Assembly: GCA_963789855.1 (NCBI GenBank)
Contig: CAWBMM010000017.1
Span: 111,910-175,909, forward strand
Direction: 5' to 3'
Length of the DNA: 64,000 nt
DNA from: an uncultured Actinomycetota bacterium
GTDB taxonomy: Bacteria > Actinomycetota > Actinomycetes > JACCUZ01
Every line of letters starts with the position of its first letter. The first letter of the stretch is position 1. The notes beneath the pieces were generated by a model. The model was not told where the DNA came from, did not search any database, and saw only the letters and a list, made by a program, of their open reading frames with translations. Both the position numbers and the translations under genes were made by a program. Of this stretch, positions 1 through 45,537 are shown piece by piece.

Positions 1-1240
1 GGATCGTGGCGGGGATGACGGGGTACCCGCCGGAGCTGTTGGACCTGGATCTGGACCTGGAGGCCGATCTGGGGGTGGACACGGTCAAGCAGGCCGAGGT
101 GTTCGCGGCGGTGCGGGAGCGGTTCGGGGTGGAGCGGGACGACAACCTGGCGTTGCGGGAGTTCCCGACGTTGGCGCACGTGATCGGCTGGATCCGGGAC
201 AAGACCGGTATCCAGCCGGTGGCGCCGGTTGCTGCGCCGGTGGCGCCGGCGGCGCCGGTGGCGCCTGCGCCGGTGGTGCCGGAGGTCGTGCTGTCGCCGG
301 TTCCGGTGCCGATGAGGTGACCGATGCGGTGGTGGGGATCGTGGCGGGGATGACGGGGTACCCGCCGGAGCTGTTGGACCTGGATCTGGACCTGGAGGCC
401 GATCTGGGGGTGGACACGGTCAAGCAGGCCGAGGTGTTCGCGGCGGTGCGGGAGCGGTTCGGGGTGGAGCGGGACGACAACCTGGCGTTGCGGGAGTTCC
501 CGACGTTGGCGCACGTGATCGGCTGGATCCGGGACAAGACCGGTATCCAGCCGGTGGCGCCGGTTGCTGCGCCGGTGGCCGCCGGTGGCCGCGGCTGCGC
601 CGGTGGTGCCGGAGCCGTGCTGAGGTCGCCGGTTCCGGTGGCCGATGAGGTGACCGATGCGGTGGTGGGGATCGTGGCGGGGATGACGGGGTACCCGCCG
701 GAGCTGTTGGACCTGGATCTGGACCTGGAGGCCGATCTGGGGGTGGACACGGTCAAGCAGGCCGAGGTGTTCGCGGCGGTGCGGGAGCGGTTCGGGGTGG
801 AGCGGGACGACAACCTGGCGTTGCGGGAGTTCCCGACGTTGGCGCACGTGATCGGCTGGATCCGGGACAAGACCGGTATCCAGCCGGTGGCGCCGGTGGC
901 TGCGCCGGCGGCCGCCGGTGGCGCCCGGTGGCCCGGCTGCGCCGGTGGTGTCGGAGCCCGCGCTTGTGGTCGTCGCCGGTTCCGGTGGCCGATGAGGTGA
1001 CCGATGCGGTGGTGGGGATCGTGGCGGGGATGACGGGGTACCCGCCGGAGCTGTTGGACCTGGATCTGGATCTGGAGGCCGATCTGGGGGTGGACACGGT
1101 CAAGCAGGCCGAGGTGTTCGCGGCGGTGCGGGAGCGGTTCGGGGTGGAGCGGGACGACAACCTGGCGTTGCGGGAGTTCCCGACGTTGGCGCACGTGATC
1201 GGCTGGGTCCGGGAGAAGACCGGTATCGCAGCCCGGTGGC
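1..1240 (+). repeat. Four tandem, near-identical coding repeats of about 330–348 bp, each one ACP domain plus an Ala/Pro/Val linker
   Basis: The string gatcgtggcggggatgacggggtacccgccggagctgttggacctggatctggacctggaggccgatctgggggtggacacggtcaagcaggccgaggtgttcgcggcggtgcgggagcggttcggggtggagcgggacgacaacctggcgttgcgggagttcccgacgttggcgcacgtgatcggctgg recurs at about 5, 339, 670 and 1018 with only a handful of differences. Confidence 0.9.
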
Positions 1241-3800
1241 AGCTGCCGGTCGCCGCGCCGGAAGCCGGCGTCGCCGGCGCCGTGGCCCAGGTGCACCCGA
1301 CGACCGTCGCCGGCGACCTCGACGCCGTCGACCGGATGCCGCGGCGGGTTCCCGTGCCGGTGCTGCGCCCCGCGCTCGGGCAGTGCCTGCCCACCGGCGT
1401 CACCCTGGGCGAGGGTGCCCGGGTGATCGTGATGCGCGACCAGGGCGGCGTCGCAGACGCACTTGTCGACCGCCTGACCAAGGCCGGTGTCACCGTGCTC
1501 GGGCTCGACCCGGCACGACCACGCGATGCCCTGCTGTCGGCGGTCGAGGACTGGCGAGCCGAGGGTCCGGTGACCGGTGTCTACTGGCTGGCCGCCCTGG
1601 ACGACGAGGGTCCGCACGAGGCCCTGGACCTCCCGGCCTGGCAGGAGGCGCTGCGCCGGCGGGTCAAGACCCTCTACGCGACGATGCGGCGGCTGTACGA
1701 CGACAGCCCGTTCCTGGTCACCGGGACCAGGCTGGGCGGGTACCACGGCTACGACGACGCCGGCGCCACCGCGCCGATGGGCGGGGCGGTGACCGGCTTC
1801 GCCAAGTCGTACAAGAAGGAGCGTCCGGAGGCGCTGGTCAAGGCGGTCGACCTGCCGGTCAACCGGAAGACGGCGCAGCCGGCACAGGCCGCTGATCGAC
1901 GAGACGCTGCGCGACCCGGGATGCGTCGAGGTGGGGCACGTCGACGGTCTGCGCTGGGGCGTCGGGCTCGTGGAGCGGCCGTTCCCACCGCAAGGTGAGC
2001 CCGCTCCGGACGCGCTCACGTTGGGGCCGGACAGTGTCGTCCTGGTCACCGGAGCGGCCGGCAGCATCGTGTCGGCGATCACGGCCGACCTGGCGGAGGC
2101 GACGGGCGCGACCTTCCACCTGCTCGACCTGACGCCGACGCCCGACCCTGCCGACCCGGACCTGCGTCGCTACCTCGAGGACCGGGACGGGCTCAAGGCC
2201 GACCTCGCGCAGCGGATCCGAGGACCGGGGTGAGCGGCCGACCCCGGTCGCCATCGAGACGGAGCTGGCTCGGTTCGAGCGGCTGGCCGCCGCGCTGGCC
2301 GCCATCGAGGCGGTCGAGGCCGCCGGTGGAACGCCGCACTACCACTCCGTCGACCTCACCGACGCCGACGCGGTCGATCGCGTCCTGGACGCGGTGCGAG
2401 CCACCAGCACCCGGGTGGACCTGCTGCTGCACGCCGCCGGCCTGGAGATCAGCCAGGCGCTGCCGGACAAGGAGCCGGCGGAGTTCGACCTCGTGTTCGG
2501 CGTGAAGAGCCGACGGCTGGTTCAACGTCCTGCACGGCGCCGGCGACCTGCCGATCGGCGCGACGGTCGTCTTCTCCTCGGTGGCCGGCCGGTTCGGCAA
2601 CGCGGGGCAGACCGACTACAGCGCCGCGAACGACCTGCTGTGCAAGGTCACCAGCAGCTTCCGCCGCACCCGCCCGGGAACCCGGGCGCTCGCCCTCGAC
2701 TGGACGGCGTGGGGCGGGATCGGCATGGCGACCCGCGGGTCGATCCCGAAGATCATGGAGATGGCCGGCGTCGAGGTGCTGCCCGCGGAGGCCGGCGTGG
2801 CCTGGATCCGCCGGGAGCTCACGGCGCACGCCTTCCGCGGCGAGGTCGTCGTGGCCGGCGAGCTGGGCCTGATGGCCGGCGGCGACCACCCGAGCGGCGG
2901 GCTCGACCCGGCGTCGCTGACGGTCGCCGGCTGCCGGTCCGATGGTCGGCGAGGTGGTCGAGGCCGACGTCCACGACGGACTGGTGGTGCGCAGCCACGC
3001 TCGACCCCGCGGCGCAGCCGTTCCTGGACCACCACCGCATCGACGGGACGGCGGTCCTGCCCGGAGTGATGGGGCATGGAGGCGTTCGCCGAGGCGGCGC
3101 GGCTGCTGGTGCCCGACTGGCACGTCGTCGGGGTGGAGGACGTCGACTTCCGGGCTCCGGTGAAGTTCTACCGGGACGAGCCGCGGACGCTCACGGTCAC
3201 TGCCCTGCTGCGGCCCGACGGGGCGGACCTGCTCGCCGAGTGCCGGCTCACGGCGGACCGGGTGCTGCCCGGCAGCGACGCACCACAGCGGACGGTGCAC
3301 TTCACCGGCGCCGGTGCGGCTGCGGGCGGAGCCACCCGAGCCGAGGACGACCGAGCCGCTGGAGCGCGCGGAGGACGCGCCGGTCGTGGCCCGCGAGGAC
3401 GTCTACCGGCTGTACTTCCACGGACCGGCGTACCAGGTGGTCGCCGAGGGCTGGCGGGACGACGGTACGGCGGTCACGCGGCTCGCTGACGCGACTGCCC
3501 GCCGAACCACGATCCGGCGGATCGCCGACCGTCCTCGCTCCCCGCCTGGTGGAGCTGTGCTTCCAGACCGCCGGGCTGTGGGAGGCCGGCCGGACCGGTC
3601 GGCTCGGGCTGCCCGCCCACGTCGACGCGGGTCCTGGTGGTCGGCGCACCCCCGCCCGACGGGGCGACCGGACGGGTGTACGCGGTGGCGCGTCCCGTTC
3701 CTGCCGGCGACGGCGAGGCGTTCGACTGCACCGTGCTCGACGGCGACGGACGGGTGATCCTGCGGGTCGAGGGCTACCGCACCGTCGCCCTGCCGGGGGC
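1..3800 (+). CDS. PfaA-like PUFA/secondary-lipid synthase (polyketide synthase), 3' portion only: 4 tandem ACP domains, then KR, then DH. The 5' end lies outside the window and the reading frame is interrupted by several frameshifts.
   Basis: Three consecutive ORFs (6..320, 317..1000, 928..1998) repeat the motif [63 protein letters not shown] four times, which matches the PfaA ACP fold (cf. Shewanella [30 protein letters not shown]). KR Rossmann signatures follow ([25 protein letters not shown]; [12 protein letters not shown]). A PfaA-type DH hot-dog region comes next ([25 protein letters not shown]; [13 protein letters not shown]; [17 protein letters not shown]). Frame changes occur near 310, 1000, 1990, 2230, 2590, 3070, 3300, 3500 and 3630. 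Confidence 0.8.
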
Positions 3801-3860
3801 GATTCCCGCCGGACGTGCGCGGGCCGCTGCAGACCGTGATGTCCGAGGCGGACGACGGGC

Positions 3861-9599
<5,739 letters not shown>

Positions 9600-10323
9600 G
9601 CAGGAAGGCGCCGTCGCGTCGCCACCAGCCGGACATCGTCCCGCCCTCGACGGTCGTCACCGCAAGGGCACCCCAGCCATCCCGGTCCGCTGCCGGATCG
9701 GGCTCGTGCACGGTGACCTCCACCGACCGGGTGTCCCGGCGCAGCCCGGTGCGCAGCACCTTGAGCGCGCTCTCCTTGGCGGACCACAGGAGGTTCGCGG
9801 CCGCGTCCCGCTCGTCGCCGTCCGCCTGTGCCGCGACGAAGTCCTGCTCGCCGTCGGTGAGGAAGTCGCTGACGAACCCGCGGGAGCGAGGCTCGACGAT
9901 CTCGAGGTCGCACCCCACCCGGTTGAGATCCGGGCCGACGACGCAGACGGCCCACCCGGCACGGTCGGTCAACGAGACGTCCAGCCCGAGCGGTCGGCCG
10001 TCGACGAGCACGTACGGGGCCCCGCTGGCGCGGTTGGCCACCTCGATGCCGGCCAGGTCGCCGGCACCGGTGGCCCGGCCGGTGCTGGCAGCCACGGCCT
10101 GCTTGCCGACCCAGCGGCGCAGCAGGTACTCGGACCGGCGTTTGGTGAACCGCATGCCCGCCGCCCGGTGGGCCTCGCGGGGGGTCAACCAGCTGTCGTC
10201 GGCCGGCAGCTCGTGCTCGCCGCGGGCCAGCCACCTCAGCGGCGCCTGCACCGGGCTCGCCTGCTCGGCGGGAGCGGCACCCGGGAGGAGCGGCTGGTTC
10301 CTGTTCCCCACCTGGTGAGTGTC

Positions 10324-22225: not shown

Positions 22226-25200
22226 GTGACGCGGGCCCGCGGCAGCAGTGCGGAGGCGCGGCTGGCGCGCCTCGGGTTCACCGAACCCGCGCAGGCAGCG
22301 GCCGCGCTGGACTCCGGGGCGCTCGACGGCCTGGTGGACGACGACGACGTGCTGGCCGACCTGGCCGCGACCGCCGACCCCGACGCAGGCGCTGCTGCGG
22401 CTGGCCCTGCTGCTCGAGGCGGAGGCGCGCGACGGCGGCAGGGACCTCGTGCCGACGCTGCGCGACGACCCCGAGCTGCGCCGCCGGCTGCTGACCGTCC
22501 TCGGCGCGAGCCAGGCCCTCGCCGACCACCTGGCCCGGGTGCCGGAGGGATGGCGGACCCTGCTGGCGGACCGCGACGTCCGGCCGACCGCGGCGGGCCT
22601 GCGGCTCGGCGTGCTGCGTGCCATCGACGCCGACCTCGACGCCGACGCACCGACCCTGCTCGGCGGCGCCGCGGCGGTCCGGAGCGCCACCGACGCGCTG
22701 CGACGCACCTACCGCGACTACCTCGTCGGCCTGGCAGCGCGCGACGTCGCCGACGGCGCTGACGTCGCCGACGTGGCCGCCGAGCTGGCCGACCTGGCCG
22801 GCGCCGTGCTCGAAGCCGCGCTGGCGATCGCCCGGGCCGAGCTGGGCGTTGCGGCGTCGACCTGCCGGCTGGCTGTCATCGCGATGGGCAAGTGCGGCGG
22901 CCGCGAGCTGAACTACGCCAGCGACGTCGACGTCGTGTTCGTGGCGGAGGCCGTCGAGGGCATCGCGGAGACTGCCGGCCTGAAGGCCGCCTCCGCACTC
23001 GCCTCGGCGATGATGCGGATCTGCTCGGCCAGCACCGCCGAGGGCACGATCTGGCCGGTCGATGCGGCCCTGCGGCCGGAGGGCAAGGCGGGTCCGCTGG
23101 TGCGGACGCTGGCCAGCCACCTGGCCTACTACCAGCGCTGGGCCAAGACCTGGGAGTTCCAGGCGCTGCTCAAGGCCCGACCGGTGGCGGGCGACCGGGC
23201 CCTGGGCGAGGCCTACCTCGACGCCGTCGCGCCGCTGGTGTGGCAGGCCGCCGAACGTCCCGACTTCGTGACCGACGTGCAGCAGATGCGCCGGCGGGTC
23301 GAGCAGAGCCTGTCGTTGGCCGACAGCCAGCGTGAGCTCAAGCTGGGCCCGGGCGGCCTGCGGGACGTGGAGTTCGCCGTCCAGCTGCTGCAGCTCGTGC
23401 ACGGCCGCACCGACGAGACGCTGCGCAGCCCCAACACCCTGGAGGCCCTCGAGGACCTCTCGACCAACGGCTACGTCGGCCGCGCCGACGCGGCCGAGCT
23501 GGACCGGGCGTACCGGTTCCTGCGCTCCGTCGAGCACCGGCTCCAGCTGCACCGGCTGCGACGCACCCACGTGATGCCGTCCGACGAGGCCGCGCTGCGA
23601 CGGGTCGGCCGCTCGCTGGGCCTGCGCACCGACCCGGTTGCCGAGCTCGACCGGCAGTGGCGGCGGCACGCCCGCGAGGTCCGGCGGCTGCACGAGAAGC
23701 TCTTCTACCGCCCGCTGCTCTCGTCGGTGGCACGGCTGGCGTCCGACGAGGCGCGGCTCACGCCGGAGGCGGCCCGCTCCCGGCTCGAGGCGCTGGGCTA
23801 CCGGGACCCGGCGGGCGCGCTGCGGCACCTCGAGGCGCTCACCGCGGGAGTCAGCCGGCGGGCGGCGATCCAGCGCACCCTGCTGCCGGTGCTGCTCGGC
23901 TGGTTCGCCGACGCCCCGGACCCCGACGGCGGTCTGCTCGCCTTCCGGCAGCTCAGCGACGCGCTGGGCACCACGCCCTGGTACCTCCGGCTGCTGCGCG
24001 ACGAAGGCACCGTGGCCCATCGGCTCGCGCTGCTGCTGGCGAGCAGCCGGTACGCCGTCGACCTGCTGGTCCGGGCGCCCGAGGCGGTGCGGCTGCTCGC
24101 GGACGACGCCGAGCTGGTGCCCCGCAGCCGGGCCGACCTCGGCAGCGAGCTGACCGCGGCGCTCGGTCGCCACGACGACCCGGACTCCGCCGTCGCGATG
24201 GCCCGCGGCGTACGACGTCGGGAGCTCTTCCGGGTGGCCGCGGCCGACCTGCTCGCCCTGGCGACCGTCGAGCAGGTCGAGGAGGCGCTCACCGATGTCG
24301 CCGCCGCCACCGTGCAGGCCGCGCTGGATGCCGCGATCCGGTCGGTGGAGACCTCCCGGGACGGTCCCCTGCCGACCCGGCTCGCGATCATCGCCATGGG
24401 CCGGTTCGGCGGTCGCGAGCTCGGCTACGCCAGCGACGCCGACGTGCTCTTCGTCCACGACCCGCTCGAGGGCGCCGACGAGCAGGACGCCTCGGAGGCC
24501 GCGCACGCCGCCGTTCAGGAGCTGCGCCGGCTGCTCGCGGTGCCCTCCCCGGACCCACCCCTGACGGTGGACGCCGACCTGCGGCCCGAGGGCCGTCAGG
24601 GGCCGCTGGTGCGCACCCTGGCGTCGTACGCCGCCTACTACGACCGCTGGTCGCTCGTCTGGGAGAGCCAGGCGCTGCTTCGGGCCGACCCGGTGGCGGG
24701 CGACCTGGCGCTGGGCGCGGCGTTCCGCACGCTGGTCGACCCGATCAGGTACCGGGAGGGCGGCCTGTCCGAGGCGGATGCCAGGGAGATCCGCCGGGTC
24801 AAGGCGCGGGTCGAGGCCGAACGGCTGCCGCGGGGCGCGGACCCGCAGCGGCACACCAAGCTCGGGCCGGGTGGGCTGGCCGACGTCGAGTGGACCGTGC
24901 AGCTGCTCCAGCTCCGGCACGCCGCCGGCGTCCCCGGACTGCGGACCACCCGGACCCTCCCTGCGCTGCAGGCGGCCGCGGACGCCGGCCTGGTCCGCCC
25001 CGAGCAGGCCCGGGTGCTCGCCCACGCGTGGCGTACCGCCAGCCGGGTGCGCAACGCGACCCTGCTGGTGCGCGGCCGACCGGGTGACACGTTGCCCACG
25101 GACCTGCGCGAACTCACCGGAGTGGCCCGCGTCCTGGGCTACCCTCCCGGCGCGGGGGAGACGCTGGTCGACGACTACCGTCGGGCGACCCGGCGGGCCA

Positions 25201-25232
25201 GAACGGTGGTGGAGCAGGTGTTCTACCGGTGA
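22226..25232 (+). CDS. glnE: Glutamine synthetase adenylyltransferase/adenylyl-removing enzyme (frameshift near 22385)
   Basis: N-terminus in frame 22226 (ARLARLGFTEPAQAAAALD). Remainder in ORF 22248..25232 (994 aa) with two nucleotidyltransferase halves (AMGKCGGRELNYASDVDVVFV and AMGRFGGRELGYASDADVLFV) plus GlnE helical domains. Confidence 0.9.
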
Positions 25233-26511
25233 CGGTGACGGGGGCGGCGCGCTCGGCCCGCGCTGTCCGCGGGCCCGGGACACCGACCTACCGGGGAGTC
25301 CTGCGCAACCCGGAGTTCCGCGGCCTCGTCGTCGCCCAGGTCGCCAGCGAGTGGGGCGACAACATCGCCCGGGTGGCGCTCGCCTCGCTGGTGCTGGTCC
25401 GCACCGACAGCGCCTTCCTCGCGGTGCTGGCCTTCGTGGTGAGCTTCGTGCCGGCCGTGTTCGGCTCCGGGCTGCTGGGGACGGCGGCGGACCGGCTGCC
25501 CCGCAAGGTGGTGCTGATCACCTGCGACCTCGCCCGCGCCGCGCTGATAGGCGTGCTCGCGCTGCTGGCCGTCGACGGGACGCCGGTCTGGGCCCTGCTC
25601 CTGCTGCTGCTCGCGGCCGAGACGTTCACCGCGCCGTTCGCGGCCGCCCATCGGTCGGTGGTGCCCGACGTCCTGCCCGACTCCCGGGAGTGCCTGGCCG
25701 GCTTCGGGATGCTGCGGGTGCTCAACCAGGTCGACCAGGTGGCGGGCATCGTGCTCGCAGGTGTCGTGATCGTGCTGGTGGGGGAGCAGGCCGGCCTGAT
25801 GCTCGACGTGGCGAGCTTCCTCGTCTCGGCCACGGTGCTGGCCCTGACCTTGCGCTGGCGCCCGGCGACCCGGGCCCCCGACGAGCACTCCACCCTGGTG
25901 GGCGACTTCCGGGCCGGCTGGCGGCTGGTCTTCGACGACCCGTCGCTGCGCGCGCTGGTGCTGCTCGGGTGGAGCGCGGCGGTCTTCCTGGTGGCTCCGG
26001 AGGCCGTGGCTCTGGCGTACGCGCGCAGACGACGGAGCCCCGGCGGTGGTCGGCGCCGCCCTGCTTGGCGGCGCTGCCGGCGGGAGCGGCCCTCGGGGCC
26101 TGGCTGGTGACCCGTCGCGACCCGGTCTGGCAGGTGCGCTCGATCGTTCCGCTGGCGGTGTGCGCCTGCCTGCCGCTGATGGTCACCTGTCTCGCCCCGC
26201 CGTGGCAGGTCGTGCTCCCGCTGTGGTTCCTCTCCGGCCTGGCGCAGGGCTTCATGGTGCCGCTGATGACCACGGTGAACCTGGTGTCGCCGGCCTCGAT
26301 GCGCGGCCGGGTGAACGGCCTGGCCGGAGCCGGGTTCTCGACCGTCACCGCCGCGGTCTTCCTGCTCGCGGCAGCCGTCGCCGACCTGGCGACCCCGGCG
26401 GTGGCGGTCACGCTGGCCGCGGTGGTGGGCCTGGCGCTGGTGGGCGTGGCGCACCACGGCTGGCCGAAGGCCGAGCTGCAACGGGTGGCCGTCCGGATCT
26501 ATCGCGGGTAG
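25229..26511 (+). CDS. MFS transporter (EntS/YbdA-like), frameshift near 26030
   Basis: ORF 25229..26110 (NPEFRGLVVAQVASEWGDNIARVALASLVL ... multiple TM helices) continues in the frame of ORF 24778..26511 (LAALPAGAALGAWLVTRRDPVWQVRSIVPLAV ... FSTVTAAVFLL). Confidence 0.7.
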
Positions 26512-40229: not shown

Positions 40230-42332
40230 ATGCCCCGACCAGCGCTGCTCCGCTGGCTCGTCCCCGCCCTGCTCATCCTCGGCTGGCTCGGCATCGGCGC
40301 CGTGGCCGGGCCGATGGCCGGCAAGGTCTCCGACGTGCAGAAGAACGACAACGCCTCGTTCCTGCCGGCCAACGCCGAGTCGACCAAGGCCCTCGAGCTG
40401 GACAAGGCCTTCACCGGCAGCGAGACCGTTCCGGCGATCGTCGTGTGGGAGCGCTCCAGCGGCCTGACCGCGGCAGACCGCGCCGCCATCGACGCCGCTG
40501 CCCGAGAAGATCGGCGACATCGACGGCCTCTCCGGACCGCCGAGCCCCGTCATCCCGTCGAAGGACGGCGCGGCCGCCCAGCTGGTGGTGCCCCTTCCGG
40601 GTGCGGACAGCTTCGACGGCGCCGGCCCGATCGTCGCGGAGATCCGGGTCGAGGCGGCCGAGGTCCCCGCCGGGGTGTCGTCGCACGTGACAGGGCCAGC
40701 CGGGTTCATCGCCGACCTGTCCAAGGCGTTCGAAGGCATCGACGGCCAGCTGCTCGTGGTGACCGGGCTGGTCGTCCTCGTCATCCTGCTCGTCGTCTAC
40801 CGCAGCCCGGTGTTCGTCCCGGTGCTGCTGTCGGCCGGGCTCGCCCTCACGACCGCCCAGGCAGCGGCGTACCAGCTGGCGAAGAACGAGGTGATCACCC
40901 TCAACGGGCAGAGCGCCGGCATCCTGCTCGTCCTGGTGTTCGGTGCCGGCACCGACTACGCGCTGCTGCTCATCAGCCGGTTCCGTGAGGAGCTGCACGT
41001 CCACGAGCGGTCCTGGGACGCCATGCGGGTGGCCTGGCGGGCCACCGCGGTGCCCGTCATCGCGTCGGGGTCGACAGTCGTGATCGGGTTGCTGTGCCTG
41101 CTGCTGTCGGACCTCAACTCCAACAGGTCGCTCGGCCCGACGGCAGCGGTGGGCATCGTCTCGGCGATGCTGGCCATGCTGACCTTCCTGCCCGCCCTCC
41201 TGCTGGTGCTGGGACGGCGCTGGTTCTGGCCGTTCCAGCCCGGGTGGGCGACGAGCACGACGTCGAGTCAGGGGTCTGGGGCAAGGTCGCCCGGCTCGTC
41301 GGCCTGCGGCCCGTCGCGGTGGCGGTGGTGACCACGCTGGCGTTGAGCATCCTCGCCCTGTTCGCGGTGACGTTGAACGCGACGGGCATCGAGTCGACCG
41401 ACCAGTTCGTCGGCAGCTCCGACGCCGTCGACGGCCAGGAGGCGCTGCTGCGGCACTTCCCGGGCGGCTCGGGGTCGCCGGTGACGGTCTACGGGCCGGC
41501 GGACCAGGCCGAGGAGCTGCAGCGGGTGGTCGCCGGCACCGACGGGGTCTCCGACGCGGCGCTGGTCGGCCAGGACGGGGTGCCGGCGCAGTCCGGGCCG
41601 CCGAAGGTGGTGGACGGCCAGGTGCTGGTGCAGGCCACCCTCGAGGACGCCCCCGACAGCCCGGCCGCCGAGTCGACCGTGAAGCGGCTGCGGCTCGCCG
41701 TCGACGACGTCTCTCCGGAGGTGCTCGTCGGGGGCACGACCGCGGTCAACCTCGACATCAAGACCGAGTCGACCCGGGACGCGCGTGTCATCATCCCGGT
41801 CGTCCTGGCGGTGATCTTCGTGATCCTGGCACTGCTGCTGAGGTCGCTGGTCGCGCCGGTGCTGCTCGTCGCGACGGTGGTGCTCTCGTTCTTCGCGACG
41901 CTCGGGGTGTGCGCGGTGGTCTTCCGGCACGTGCTGGGGTTCGCGGGGATCGACCCGTCGTTCCCGCTGTTCGCGTTCGTGTTCCTGGTCGCGCTCGGCA
42001 TCGACTACAACATCTTCCTGATGACCCGGGTGCGGGAGGAGTCCTGGAAGCTCGGCACCCGGCCGGGCACCTTGCGAGGACTCGCGGTCACCGGTGGAGT
42101 CATCACCTCAGCTGGTGTGGTCCTCGCCGCGACGTTCGCCGCCCTCGGGGTGCTGCCGCTGGTGCCGCTGGCCGAGATCGGGTTCGCGGTGGCGTTCGGA
42201 GTGCTGCTGGACACCCTCGTGGTGCGGTCTCTGCTGGTGCCGGCCGTCACCTACCTGCTGGACGGGCGCATCTGGTGGCCCGGTCGCCTGGCGTCGGTGA
42301 CCGCCCAGCCGCAAGACTCGCAGGATGACTGA
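40230..42332 (+). CDS. MMPL-family (RND superfamily) membrane transporter, frameshifts near 40500 and 41250
   Basis: ORFs 40230..40988, 40585..41331 and 41094..42332. Twelve-TM MMPL topology with [35 protein letters not shown] and a periplasmic loop. Confidence 0.8.
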
Positions 42333-44001: not shown

Positions 44002-44742
44002 TCAGCCCAGTGCCCGGTCGATCGCCGGAATGCGGTCCACCAGCGCGGCAAGCGCGTGAGCGGCGTCGGACGGCGCCCCCAGCGCGACCAGGTTCGCCAT
44101 GCCCTCGTCGCCGGCCGCCGCACGGGCGGTGATGCCGTCCACCATCAGCTGGATCCGCCCCGGCACGGCGTGCAGGAGCTCGCGGGCCGGGTGCGCACCG
44201 TAGGTGTCGACGATCAGCCGCAGCCGGGCGGCCGCCCGCCCGGGGCCGACGTCCTCCCAGAGGGGAACGCCGTTCCAGGCGATGAACGCCAGCTCGAGCA
44301 GCGGTGTCGACGGGCCGGCGAGGTCCCAGTCGAAGACACCGACCAGGTCGTCCCCGTCGAAGCAGAGGTTGTAGAAGCCGAGGTCGTTGTGGGCGACCAT
44401 CGTCGGCTCCGGGACCTCGAAGAACCGCCACGGACCGCGGTGGTCGAAGTCGGCGACCGCCCGGTGGAAGGCCCGCGTCCAGCCGACCAGCGACACGAGC
44501 TGACCCGTCGTCAGCCGCTCGGTGGTCGCGTCGAGCACGTGACCCGGCAGGTAGTCGAGGACCTCGCGTCCCTGGTCGTCGATGCCGTGCACCCTCGGGA
44601 CGTGCGGCACCCGGCTGCCGACGTGGTCGAGCAGGGCGTGCACCGCAGCGGTCCAGGGGCCGGTCGGCCGGTGCACCCGGTCGCCGATGCGGACGGCGCC
44701 GCCGACGCGACCGACCAGTCGCTGCTCGTCGGCGCCGGGCAC
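44002..44742 (-). CDS. Aminoglycoside/choline-kinase-like phosphotransferase (APH fold)
   Basis: 246 aa. VAHNDLGFYNLCFDGDD (Brenner motif HNDxxxxN) and VGVFDWDLAG (DWD metal-binding motif). Confidence 0.7.
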   Translation of the reverse strand: MPGADEQRLVGRVGGAVRIGDRVHRPTGPWTAAVHALLDHVGSRVPHVPRVHGIDDQGREVLDYLPGHVLDATTERLTTGQLVSLVGWTRAFHRAVADFDHRGPWRFFEVPEPTMVAHNDLGFYNLCFDGDDLVGVFDWDLAGPSTPLLELAFIAWNGVPLWEDVGPGRAAARLRLIVDTYGAHPARELLHAVPGRIQLMVDGITARAAAGDEGMANLVALGAPSDAAHALAALVDRIPAIDRALG

Positions 44743-44747
44743 GGTGG

Positions 44748-45470
44748 TCAGGTCCCGAGCAGGCGCGGCTCGACGCGGGTCTCGACCGCGGTGCCGTCCG
44801 GGCCGCGTTCGACGACGTACGCCGCGGCTCCCGTCCGGTCGGCGACCGCCTCCACCAGCTCGGTGCCCTCGTAGACGAGCCCGACGCCGTCATCGGTGGC
44901 GTGCGAGGTCGGCAGCACCTGCTCGGCCACCAGCCGGTGCAGCAGGGGGCGGCGCTGCTCCTCGGAGTCGTAGTGGACGCCGTTGCCGTAGGGCAGCAGG
45001 GCCAACCCGTTGAGCACCGGGCGCAGGTCGCGGCCGAAGCTGTCGGTCGGCCCACCGACGTACCAGCAGATGGAGCCCGCGGACACGCCGCCGAGCACGA
45101 CGCCCTCCTCCCAGCACTCCCGGAGCACCTCGTCGAGGCGGTGGGTGCGCCAGACGGCCAGCAGGTTGGCCACCGACCCGCCGCCGACCCAGATGACGTC
45201 CTGGGACAGCAGGTGGGCCCGGACGTCGTCGACGTTGGGCATCATGAACAGCTCGAGGTGCGAGGCGCGGACGTCCGAGCCCGCGAACGCGCGGTAGAAC
45301 CCGGCGGTGCCGTTCAGGCTGTCACCGGTGGCGGTGCCGACGTAGCAGAACCGGGGGCGGTCCGGGTTGCCGGCGAGCGCGATCGCGTGCTCGATCAGCG
45401 GGCCGCGCTGCCACTGGAACGGGCCGAGGTCGGTGGGCAGGAAGCCGCCCGAGGTCGCCAGGATCTTCAC
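44748..45470 (-). CDS. Peptidase E / S51-family (type-1 glutamine-amidotransferase-like fold) peptidase
   Basis: 240 aa. MKILATSGGF ... IWVGGGSVANLL ... LGGVSAGSICW. Confidence 0.65.
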   Translation of the reverse strand: MKILATSGGFLPTDLGPFQWQRGPLIEHAIALAGNPDRPRFCYVGTATGDSLNGTAGFYRAFAGSDVRASHLELFMMPNVDDVRAHLLSQDVIWVGGGSVANLLAVWRTHRLDEVLRECWEEGVVLGGVSAGSICWYVGGPTDSFGRDLRPVLNGLALLPYGNGVHYDSEEQRRPLLHRLVAEQVLPTSHATDDGVGLVYEGTELVEAVADRTGAAAYVVERGPDGTAVETRVEPRLLGT

Positions 45471-45537
45471 CTGCCGACCCTACGACGACCACCCCTCCGC
45501 CGGCCGACCGGCCGCGCGTCGGTCACCTCCCCAGCGG

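What the first reader, a model, noticed from the sequence alone, without database searches (positions are those of the whole stretch)
1..1240. All four tandem PfaA-type ACP domains carry Thr instead of the phosphopantetheinyl-acceptor Ser
Each repeat aligns residue-for-residue with PUFA-synthase ACPs (…MEADLGIDSIKRVEIL… in Shewanella PfaA). At the invariant DSL serine it reads [13 protein letters not shown], with codon acg in all four copies. Sfp-type PPTases are only known to modify Ser. So this is either an array of catalytically dead ACP-like 'spacer' domains or an unprecedented carrier chemistry. The copies are near-identical at the DNA level, so a systematic read error is unlikely. Concerted evolution is the more likely cause, although a collapsed repeat assembly remains possible.
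Basis: partly seen in the sequence, partly recalled or inferred. Interest (0 to 1): 0.7.

Follow-up and report, generated by a model that had tools for sequence, protein, structure and literature searches.

The report
Carrier domains with threonine acceptor site
The four repeated carrier domains of this fatty-acid/polyketide synthase do carry threonine where all studied carrier proteins carry the cofactor-bearing serine; the same is true of hundreds of related synthases in several phyla, so threonine probably holds the cofactor, which has not been shown for any carrier protein as far as I could find.

Summary
Window 1-1240 holds four tandem PfaA-type ACP units reading [13 protein letters not shown]. 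The Thr codon is ACG at 81, 416, 749 and 1096, exactly at the phosphopantetheine-Ser position. The units contain no Ser at all.

It is neither a read error nor private to this genome. The same motif has Thr in 293/294, 121/122 and 187/187 instances in three homolog sets, written with four synonymous codons. The hosts span Actinomycetota, Chloroflexota, Acidobacteriota and Myxococcota.

The host gene is a KS-AT-KS-ACPn-KR-DH synthase, matching Shulse & Allen's uncharacterised "Type R". It lies in a conserved cluster: ETF, acyl-CoA dehydrogenase, synthase, single-chain acetyl-CoA carboxylase, Sfp-type PPTase. Catalytic motifs are present where checked, no other ACP lies nearby, and the PPTase is in 32 of 36 loci.

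One relative has a mixed array with Ser in ACP1 and Thr in ACP2-4.

The best reading is that these are working carriers with phosphopantetheine on Thr. This is inferred, not shown. "Dead spacers" is disfavoured.

The frameshifts in the linkers are assembly indels, and copy number is uncertain. No report of this feature was found.

The parts
1..215 (+). ACP unit 1, cut by the window edge; frame 3; Thr codon ACG at 81-83
   Evidence: Pfam PP-binding
308..553 (+). ACP unit 2; frame 2; Thr codon ACG at 416-418
641..886 (+). ACP unit 3; frame 2; Thr codon ACG at 749-751
988..1230 (+). ACP unit 4; frame 1; Thr codon ACG at 1096-1098; continues into the KR region
   Evidence: AF2 model; Foldseek
1336..2850 (+). 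Ketoreductase region of the same synthase, split over 3 frames by indels; YSAAN motif present
   Evidence: tblastn with the L026 KR, 59-82% identity; motif scan
2994..3807 (+). PKS-type dehydratase domain (HxxxGxxxxP present), at the C-terminus of the synthase
   Evidence: tblastn; motif scan; Pfam PS-DH and PKS_DH_N on ortholog L026
3862..9599 (+). Single-chain acetyl/acyl-CoA carboxylase (BC-BCCP-central-CT), fragmented by indels
   Evidence: tblastn to the 1820-aa ACC of L026; Pfam domains on L026; same protein class as the essential SACE_4237 (PMC6491548)
9466..10311 (-). Sfp-type 4'-phosphopantetheinyl transferase, convergent with the ACC; present in 32 of 36 related loci that reach this far
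   Evidence: Pfam ACPS E=2.9e-17; alignment to Sfp conserves the GxDxE and WSxKExxxK residues; synteny table

Best explanation
The array is the carrier module of an iterative type I fatty-acid/polyketide synthase of the PfaA-like kind. Its architecture is KS-AT-KS-ACPn-KR-DH. The window shows only ACP4-KR-DH.

The synthase sits in a conserved cluster. Upstream are ETF and an acyl-CoA-dehydrogenase-type enzyme, the likely trans enoyl reductase. Downstream are a single-chain acetyl-CoA carboxylase that supplies malonyl-CoA, and an Sfp-type PPTase.

In this whole family the acceptor residue at the N-terminus of ACP helix II is Thr, not Ser. The most likely mechanism runs as follows. A PPTase, by default the one encoded in the cluster, transfers 4'-phosphopantetheine from CoA onto the Thr hydroxyl, a secondary alcohol. 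The resulting holo-ACPs then carry malonyl and growing acyl thioesters between AT, KS, KR, DH and the trans reductase, as Ser-ACPs do in PUFA synthases.

Shown here:
- Thr is at the acceptor position.
- It is under purifying selection family-wide.
- The fold is an ACP fold.
- Partner-domain catalytic motifs are present where checked.
- The PPTase is linked to the synthase.
- No other ACP lies nearby.
- Ser and Thr interchange at this site within one array.

Inferred:
- That Thr is actually phosphopantetheinylated.
- Which PPTase does it.
- That the ACAD/ETF pair is the reductase.
- The nature of the lipid product.
For: 1. Register. Thr aligns with the Ppant Ser in PDB ACPs and in PfaA-type Ser ACPs with near-identical flanks. 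It is the first residue of helix II in the model.

2. Conservation. Thr occurs in 293/294 motif instances in 120 homologs, 121/122 in 38 genome loci plus the window, with codons ACG 61, ACC 58, ACT 2, and 187/187 in a second set. Named members of these sets come from Chloroflexia, Anaerolineae, Caldilinea, Terriglobales, Bryobacteraceae, Thermoanaerobaculia, Methylomirabilis and Myxococcales. The positions around the Thr (L28, D29, E31, D33-G35, D37, V39, Q41) are invariant in 207 distinct domains, and no Ser is conserved anywhere in the domain.

3. Breadth. In an exhaustive phmmer search of 1.84 billion representatives, 106 of the 139 new representatives among the top 150 hits are Thr-only.

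4. Diverged copies. Arrays whose copies have diverged still have Thr in every Thr-type copy (L042 at 0.77 and L043 at 0.68 DNA identity). Homogenisation alone does not explain it.

5. Working synthase. The intact ortholog L026 has KS1 Cys/His/His, AT GHSxG plus HAFH, KS2 Cys/His/His, KR YSAAN and DH HxxxGxxxxP. The strict motif scan found KS2, AT and HAFH in 26-27 loci and KR and DH in most loci; KS1 was matched in only 16, a figure not checked with looser patterns.

6. No other carrier. An ACP HMM finds no ACP-like ORF outside the array within 10 kb either side in any locus.

7. PPTase. It is present in 32/36 loci and directly downstream of the synthase in a non-actinobacterial member (L042). 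Its Mg2+-binding and catalytic residues align with Sfp D107, E109, E151 and K155.

8. Natural Ser/Thr swap. L043 has the same architecture with ACP1 = DLGVDSIKQAE (TCG) and ACP2-4 = DLGIDTVKQAE (ACC, ACA, ACA). One Ser-type domain (P0194) nests among Thr-type domains in an NJ tree.
Against: No direct evidence of the modification exists here.

The only experimental datum found on a Ser-to-Thr carrier is negative. E. coli ACP S36T cannot be modified and is non-functional (PMC3340395).

No precedent for Thr phosphopantetheinylation was found in the searchable literature.

No PPTase sequence signature that tracks the Thr state was found. The one candidate failed.

In L040 and L043 no PPTase lies within 10 kb.

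The NJ tree rests on 76 columns and is weakly resolved.

In the window itself the genes are broken by indels, so function in this particular genome rests on reading these as assembly errors.
Confidence: 0.7

Rival explanations
1. The Thr domains are ACP-shaped but never receive phosphopantetheine. They would act as spacers, scaffolds or docking modules, and the chain would be carried by free CoA or by an ACP encoded elsewhere.
For: Ser-to-Thr abolishes modification of E. coli ACP (PMC3340395). The cluster's reductase candidate belongs to the acyl-CoA dehydrogenase family, which usually acts on CoA thioesters. L043 has one Ser-ACP ahead of three Thr-ACPs, which could be read as one real carrier plus accessory domains.
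Against: Spacers would not keep the acceptor-loop and helix-II motif close to invariant across phyla. Most synthases in the family have no Ser-ACP at all. No other ACP is found within 10 kb either side. AT, KS, KR and DH are domains that act on carrier-bound substrates. The PPTase would have no evident substrate. Acyl-ACP and aminoacyl-carrier dehydrogenases of the ACAD family do exist; MbtN, PigA and RedW models appear among the hits.
Confidence: 0.13
2. The Thr carries something other than phosphopantetheine. One option is direct O-acylation by the AT, giving an oxoester carrier. Another is a different phosphodiester-linked prosthetic group. A third is that the cofactor sits on one of the other invariant Thr residues (the Thr of KTGYP or of FPTL).
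For: Three Thr positions are nearly invariant in the domain: columns 17, 38 and 67. Nothing here identifies the modification chemically.
Against: The motif Thr occupies the canonical acceptor geometry at the N-terminus of helix II. A direct ester would lack the roughly 20 Å arm that type I synthase active sites need (general knowledge of FAS/PKS). The linked transferase is a standard PPTase with CoA- and Mg2+-binding residues. The natural Ser/Thr swap is at the motif position.
Confidence: 0.07
3. It is an artefact: a systematic base-calling error or a collapsed, chimeric repeat created Thr codons from Ser codons in this assembly.
For: The window is full of indel errors. Units 1-3 are identical over 215 bp, as a collapsed repeat would be.
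Against: Thr to Ser needs a substitution, not an indel. The same Thr is found in hundreds of independent assemblies, including isolate genomes (Nonomuraea composti, Kineosporia sp., Nostocoides sp., Paractinoplanes durhamensis). It is written with four different codons.
Confidence: 0.01

Closest known systems
PfaA tandem ACP domains of bacterial PUFA synthases (TIGR02813 family)
   Same: Tandem ACP repeats separated by Ala/Pro-rich linkers. They sit between AT/KS and KR in a multidomain iterative synthase. The local sequence is near-identical (KTGYP..ML.L.xDLExDLG[IV]D-x-[IV]K). Repeats evolve in concert. A PPTase gene lies in the cluster.
   Different: Acceptor residue is Thr instead of Ser, and helix II reads TVKQAE.F instead of SIKRVEIL. 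The synthase has a second Cys-bearing KS between AT and the ACPs and a PKS-type DH after the KR. No PfaB, PfaC or PfaD partners are seen; ACAD/ETF and a single-chain ACC are there instead. The ortholog scores 808.5 bits against the 1010.1 cut-off of TIGR02813.
Shulse & Allen (2011) 'Type R' secondary lipid synthase cluster (PMC3098273)
   Same: Architecture as described in the paper: KS-MAT-CLF-ACP(3-6)-KR followed by a PPTase gene, with an ACC gene between them in Koribacter. The product is unknown. Relatives of the window's synthase occur in the same lineages: Terriglobales, Bryobacteraceae and Chloroflexia.
   Different: The paper does not mention Thr (0 occurrences of 'threonine') and did not list Actinobacteria under Type R. 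The 'CLF' here has an active-site Cys. A DH domain follows the KR. ACAD/ETF genes are part of the conserved block. Placement in their KS tree was not tested.
Ser-type sister synthases: the 'DLGIDSIKKAQ' group (e.g. P0186) and P0194 (KS-AT-KS-ACP4-KR-DH with a fused PPTase)
   Same: Same ACP subfamily and largely the same domain order. They lie next to or inside the Thr clade in the ACP tree.
   Different: They keep Ser. P0186 sits in a different gene context, with a condensation domain and 3-hydroxyacyl-CoA dehydrogenase. P0194 carries its PPTase as a C-terminal domain.
E. coli AcpP S36T mutant
   Same: The same residue change at the same position of an ACP.
   Different: It is an engineered change in a Ser-adapted system. 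It cannot be modified by 4'-PP and cannot support growth (PMC3340395). Here Thr is the selected native state of a whole family.

Membership tests
Carrier protein / PP-binding domain (PF00550) | Sequence match to the family profile above the curated threshold | tested here: met
   29.5 and 30.7 bits against a gathering score of 20.8
Carrier protein / PP-binding domain (PF00550) | Four-helix ACP fold | tested here: met
   AF2 model with pLDDT 83.6 and helices 4-17, 30-34, 38-52 and 68-79. Foldseek top hits are ACPs with TM 0.8-0.87.
Carrier protein / PP-binding domain (PF00550) | Conserved Ser at the N-terminus of helix II, in the (D/H)S(L/I) motif, as the phosphopantetheine acceptor | tested here: not met
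   Thr in all four units and in more than 99% of family instances. No Ser anywhere in the unit.
Carrier protein / PP-binding domain (PF00550) | Covalent 4'-phosphopantetheine on the acceptor residue | not testable with these tools
   Needs mass spectrometry of the protein.
PfaA (PUFA synthase subunit A, TIGR02813) | Whole-protein score at or above the curated cut-off | tested here: not met
   Ortholog L026 scores 808.5 against 1010.1.
PfaA (PUFA synthase subunit A, TIGR02813) | KS-MAT-ACPn-KR order with tandem ACPs | tested here: inconclusive
   Orthologs are KS-AT-KS-ACPn-KR-DH, with an extra KS and a DH. The window shows only ACP4-KR-DH.
PfaA (PUFA synthase subunit A, TIGR02813) | Cluster partners PfaB, PfaC (KS-CLF-DH2) and PfaD (NMO-type ER) | tested here: not met
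   The conserved neighbours are ETF, ACAD, a single-chain ACC and a PPTase. An NMO-type ER appears only in the distant member P0151.
Shulse-Allen Type R secondary lipid synthase | One pfaA homolog, KS-MAT-CLF-ACP(3-6)-KR, followed by a PPTase gene (with ACC between in Koribacter) | tested here: met
   L026, L042 and most loci fit. The window has ACP>=4-KR-DH, then ACC, then PPTase.
Shulse-Allen Type R secondary lipid synthase | Placement of the proximal KS in the Type R clade of their KS tree | not tested
The only support is shared taxa among relatives.
Sfp-type PPTase (window 9466-10311) | ACPS superfamily match; about 230-280 aa with two pseudo-symmetric halves | tested here: met
   PF01648 E=2.9e-17. 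The N-terminal half aligns to AcpS and the C-terminal half to Sfp.
Sfp-type PPTase (window 9466-10311) | Mg2+/catalytic residues (Sfp D107, E109, E151, K155) | tested here: met
   GCDLE and WSAKESALK align with GIDIE and WSMKESFIK. They are invariant in 14 cluster PPTases.
Sfp-type PPTase (window 9466-10311) | Conserved His of the (I/V)S-H-(S/T) motif (Sfp H90) | tested here: not met
   Actinobacterial cluster PPTases read VS[LIVM][TS]DRAG. The non-actinobacterial Thr-cluster PPTase keeps ISISHS, so this loss is lineage-specific and not linked to Thr.

The most novel reading that the evidence does not exclude
4'-Phosphopantetheine attached to threonine is a natural and widespread prosthetic linkage. 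A whole clade of PfaA-like synthases would run entirely on Thr-linked holo-ACPs. These synthases occur in Actinomycetota, Chloroflexota, Acidobacteriota and Myxococcota, and in some MAGs labelled archaeal. Their PPTases would accept a secondary alcohol. Because a housekeeping AcpS does not modify an E. coli Ser-to-Thr ACP, the ACP/PPTase pairs could be naturally orthogonal. A further, less likely extension is that this cluster is a self-contained primary fatty-acid synthase in some of these lineages. The grounds for that extension are its own eukaryote-like ACC, its ACAD/ETF reductase, and its position in the core glnA-panB-lipB chromosome block.
Probability: 0.65. Interest if true: 0.8.

Novelty: new variant of a known kind. 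Interest (0 to 1): 0.68.

Why it matters
Every textbook and motif definition of carrier proteins (FAS, PKS, NRPS) names a conserved serine as the cofactor site. Ser-to-Thr is used in the laboratory as a null mutation.

A large, phylogenetically broad family that has fixed Thr there means one of two things. Either phosphopantetheinyl transfer has a wider acceptor chemistry than assumed, or a major class of 'ACP' domains does something else. The first option has practical consequences:
- PPTase specificity would need revisiting.
- Orthogonal ACP/PPTase pairs could be used in engineering.
- The phosphodiester would probably resist beta-elimination better than a Ser-linked one (my inference from general phospho-Ser/Thr chemistry).

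It also bears on annotation. Rule-based site prediction, which looks for the Ser, will not mark an acceptor site in these domains.

The test is cheap: one 80-residue domain, one PPTase and a mass spectrometer.

The synthase family itself (Type R) has had no known product since 2011, as far as the searchable literature shows. Here it sits beside an ACC of the class shown to be the essential one in Saccharopolyspora erythraea.

Tried and rejected
1. A Thr-specific PPTase signature. Actinobacterial cluster PPTases lack the conserved His of the SISHS motif and read VSLTDR. I considered this a co-adaptation to Thr. It is rejected because the PPTase next to a non-actinobacterial Thr-type synthase (L042:19240-19914) keeps ISISHS.

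2. An alternative Ser or a shifted alignment. Rejected: the unit has no Ser, and the flanks match PfaA ACPs residue for residue.

3. A hidden stand-alone ACP in the cluster. An HMM scan of all six-frame segments of 43 loci found ACP-like hits only inside the synthase.

4. Pseudogene. The frameshifts in 1-9600 look like decay. However, every piece keeps 42-82% identity to the intact ortholog, and the linker indels examined fall in G/C runs. They are treated as assembly errors.

5. Source organism. P0001 is 100% identical and comes from a 385-kb contig, but it could not be traced to a record.

6. Literature. Ten searches were run: motif strings, 'threonine phosphopantetheinylation', S36T, Type R taxa and the multidomain ACC. 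None reported Thr-ACPs. The Beld et al. PPTase review could not be opened.

7. Monophyly of the Thr clade. The NJ tree on 76 columns gives one large Thr clade, one nested Ser domain and one boundary Thr group. It is too weakly resolved to count transitions.

8. Primary-FAS hypothesis. It could not be tested, because whole genomes cannot be scanned here for fab genes.

Full report
**1. What is in the window**

Positions 1-1240 are a tandem array with a 333-bp period, 3.7 copies and 95% matches. Translation shows four ACP units with the sequence ...([10 protein letters not shown])[63 protein letters not shown](I/V)R(D/E)KTG....

The Thr codon is ACG at 81-83, 416-418, 749-751 and 1096-1098. Units 1-3 are identical over a 215-bp core. 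Unit 4 has three substitutions in the core.

The units lie in frames 3, 2, 2 and 1. The Ala/Pro linkers are 120, 118 and 132 bp long and differ by single-base indels in G/C runs. The same problem runs through the whole window. The KR/DH region is split over three frames and the downstream carboxylase into about ten pieces, yet each piece keeps 42-82% identity to intact orthologs. I read these as assembly indels, not decay. Unit 1 is cut by the window edge, so four copies is a minimum.

**2. Is the Thr really at the acceptor position?**

Yes, on four grounds.
- Pfam PP-binding matches above threshold.
- phmmer against all PDB chains places the Thr on the Ser of DSI/DSL in PigH, mitochondrial ACP, Aquifex ACP and Streptomyces ACP.
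- An exhaustive phmmer search of 1.84 billion representative proteins retrieved canonical PfaA-type ACPs. Their consensus is KTGYP.EMLEL.MDLE.DLGIDSIKRVEIL, against [19 protein letters not shown][IV]DTVKQAE.F for this type. The register is fixed by identical flanks.
- An AlphaFold2 model (pLDDT 83.6) has the Thr as the first residue of helix II. Its best structural matches are ACPs at TM about 0.8.

**3. It is a family trait under selection**

| Set | Thr at the motif | Source |
|---|---|---|
| 120 closest homologs | 293 of 294 (the exception is Pro) | |
| 38 loci from species-representative genomes, plus the window | 121 of 122, with codons ACG 61, ACC 58, ACT 2 | |
| Second homolog set seeded from a Chloroflexia protein | 187 of 187 | |

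Named members of the second set come from Chloroflexia, Anaerolineae, Caldilinea, Promineofilum, Terriglobales, Bryobacteraceae, Thermoanaerobaculia, Methylomirabilis, Myxococcales, Polyangiales and several actinobacterial orders.

In 207 distinct domains, L28, D29, E31, D33-G35, D37, V39 and Q41 around the Thr are invariant, and no Ser is conserved anywhere. Among the 139 new representatives in the top 150 hits of the exhaustive search, 106 are Thr-only, 32 Ser-only and one mixed.

Copies within an array are homogenised: DNA identity averages 0.91 within arrays against 0.74 between loci. Arrays whose copies have diverged to 0.68-0.77 still have Thr in each Thr-type copy. A read error or a collapsed repeat therefore cannot explain the Thr.

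**4. The machine around it**

The intact ortholog in Nonomuraea composti (L026) is a 2880-aa protein with these features:
- KS with Cys/His/His;
- AT with GHSxG and HAFH;
- a second KS with Cys/His/His;
- two ACPs;
- KR with YSAAN;
- DH with HxxxGxxxxP.

The flanking genes are conserved in almost all loci. Upstream are ETF-beta/alpha and a 560-aa acyl-CoA-dehydrogenase-family protein. Downstream are a 1820-aa single-chain carboxylase (BC-BCCP-central-CT) and an Sfp-type PPTase, present in 32 of the 36 loci that reach that far.

The window shows the distal part: KR 1336-2850, DH 2994-3807, ACC 3862-9599 and PPTase 9466-10311 on the minus strand.

The carboxylase belongs to the class of SACE_4237, the essential malonyl-CoA supplier of Saccharopolyspora erythraea (PMC6491548).

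An ACP HMM finds no ACP-like ORF outside the array in any locus.

Thr-type ACPs also occur in variant architectures. P0151 has a fused N-terminal NMO-type ER, followed by a biotin ligase, an ACC and BioY. P0121 has the ACAD-synthase-PPTase arrangement in a non-actinobacterial contig.

**5. How it most likely works**

The AT, KS, KR and DH domains carry their catalytic motifs where checked, and they act on carrier-bound thioesters. The only carriers available are the Thr-ACPs, and a PPTase travels with them. The economical reading is that the Thr hydroxyl receives 4'-phosphopantetheine and the domains work like PfaA ACPs.

A natural experiment supports equivalence of Ser and Thr at this site. 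L043 has the same architecture, with ACP1 = DLGVDSIKQAE (TCG) followed by three DLGIDTVKQAE units (ACC, ACA, ACA). One Ser-type synthase (P0194, with a fused PPTase) nests among Thr types in an ACP tree.

Against this reading:
- The only experimental datum I found on Ser-to-Thr is negative. E. coli ACP S36T is not modified and is non-functional (PMC3340395).
- I found no PPTase signature that tracks the Thr state. The loss of the SISHS His in actinobacterial cluster PPTases is not shared by the L042 PPTase.

I therefore put 0.7 on 'functional carriers with phosphopantetheine on Thr', 0.13 on 'unmodified ACP-like modules', 0.07 on another modification or site, and about 0.01 on artefact.

The roles of ACAD/ETF as trans enoyl reductase and of the cluster as a saturated-chain fatty-acid synthase are inferences from domain content. 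The product is unknown.

**6. Comparison with what is known**

The architecture and gene order match the 'Type R' secondary lipid synthase cluster catalogued by Shulse & Allen in 2011. That type is KS-MAT-CLF-ACP(3-6)-KR plus a PPTase, with an ACC in between in Koribacter, and it is found in Acidobacteria, Chloroflexi and Elusimicrobia with no known product (PMC3098273). The relatives found here come from the same lineages.

That paper does not mention threonine. Neither the motif strings nor any phrase for threonine phosphopantetheinylation occurs in the 8 million searchable papers. Public annotations call these proteins 'phosphopantetheine-binding protein' or 'SDR family oxidoreductase'.

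It is not a PfaA in the strict sense. It scores 808.5 against the 1010.1 cut-off, has an extra KS and a DH, and lacks PfaB, PfaC and PfaD. It fails the one residue-level criterion of a canonical carrier protein while meeting the fold and profile criteria.

**7. Verdict**

The Thr is real and selected, 'dead spacer' is unlikely, and new carrier chemistry is likely but unproven. The feature belongs to a large family and is not peculiar to this locus.

I rate it a new variant of a known kind. It would surprise carrier-protein specialists, and one expression experiment with mass spectrometry would test it.

Noticed in passing
window 1-9600 (also 25088-26107, 40468-42329 and 44005-45479): Genes are broken by many single-base indels. 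The PKS KR/DH is in 3 frames and the ACC in about 10 pieces, while similarity to intact orthologs stays high. This looks like an error-prone long-read assembly. The public gene calls P0001 and P0060 are fragments of the same array.
   Followed up: partly
window 3862-9599: Eukaryote-like single-chain acetyl/acyl-CoA carboxylase (BC-BCCP-central-CT) directly after the synthase. It is the same class as SACE_4237, the essential ACC of Saccharopolyspora erythraea. It is conserved next to the Thr-type synthase in nearly all loci.
   Followed up: partly
window 9466-10311 (-) and the PPTases of L001-L038: Actinobacterial cluster PPTases read VS[LIVM][TS]DRAG where AcpS/Sfp-type enzymes have the conserved (I/V)S-H-(S/T) His. 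The PPTase of the non-actinobacterial Thr cluster (L042:19240-19914) keeps ISISHS. The functional meaning is unknown.
   Followed up: yes
L043:10580-11700: Mixed array in one synthase. ACP1 has Ser (TCG, DLGVDSIKQAE) and ACP2-4 have Thr (ACC, ACA, ACA). ACP1 is also the most divergent unit.
   Followed up: yes
L040:10001-29321: Thr-type synthase of 4019 aa with an N-terminal NMO (PfaD-like) enoyl reductase fused. It is followed by a biotin protein ligase, a 1941-aa single-chain ACC and BioY. A FixABCX-like ETF set lies upstream on the other strand.
   Followed up: partly
P0166, P0194 (database proteins): A Thr-type synthase is labelled as a Thermoplasmatota archaeon MAG. A Ser-type KS-AT-KS-ACP4-KR-DH-PPTase fusion is labelled as a Heimdallarchaeota MAG. 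Either these are bacterial-type fatty-acid/polyketide synthases in archaeal bins, or they are binning contamination.
   Followed up: no
window 10324-57147: The cluster sits in a housekeeping gene block: DUF3291, map, panB, nadE, a GAF-GGDEF-EAL protein, glnA, glnE, a second glnA fragment, lipB, MMPL, sucB (E2), lpdA, pepA and gcvT/aroK. From memory this resembles the Rv2211-Rv2225 region of M. tuberculosis, whose FAS-II operon lies nearby; that comparison was not tested here. This placement suggests a core rather than an accessory function.
   Followed up: partly
L026:2862-4568 and orthologs: The cluster's acyl-CoA-dehydrogenase-family protein is about 560 aa. It has a C-terminal extension of about 190 aa with no Pfam match. 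Its best NCBIfam hit is the ETF-dependent acryloyl-CoA reductase AcrC.
   Followed up: no
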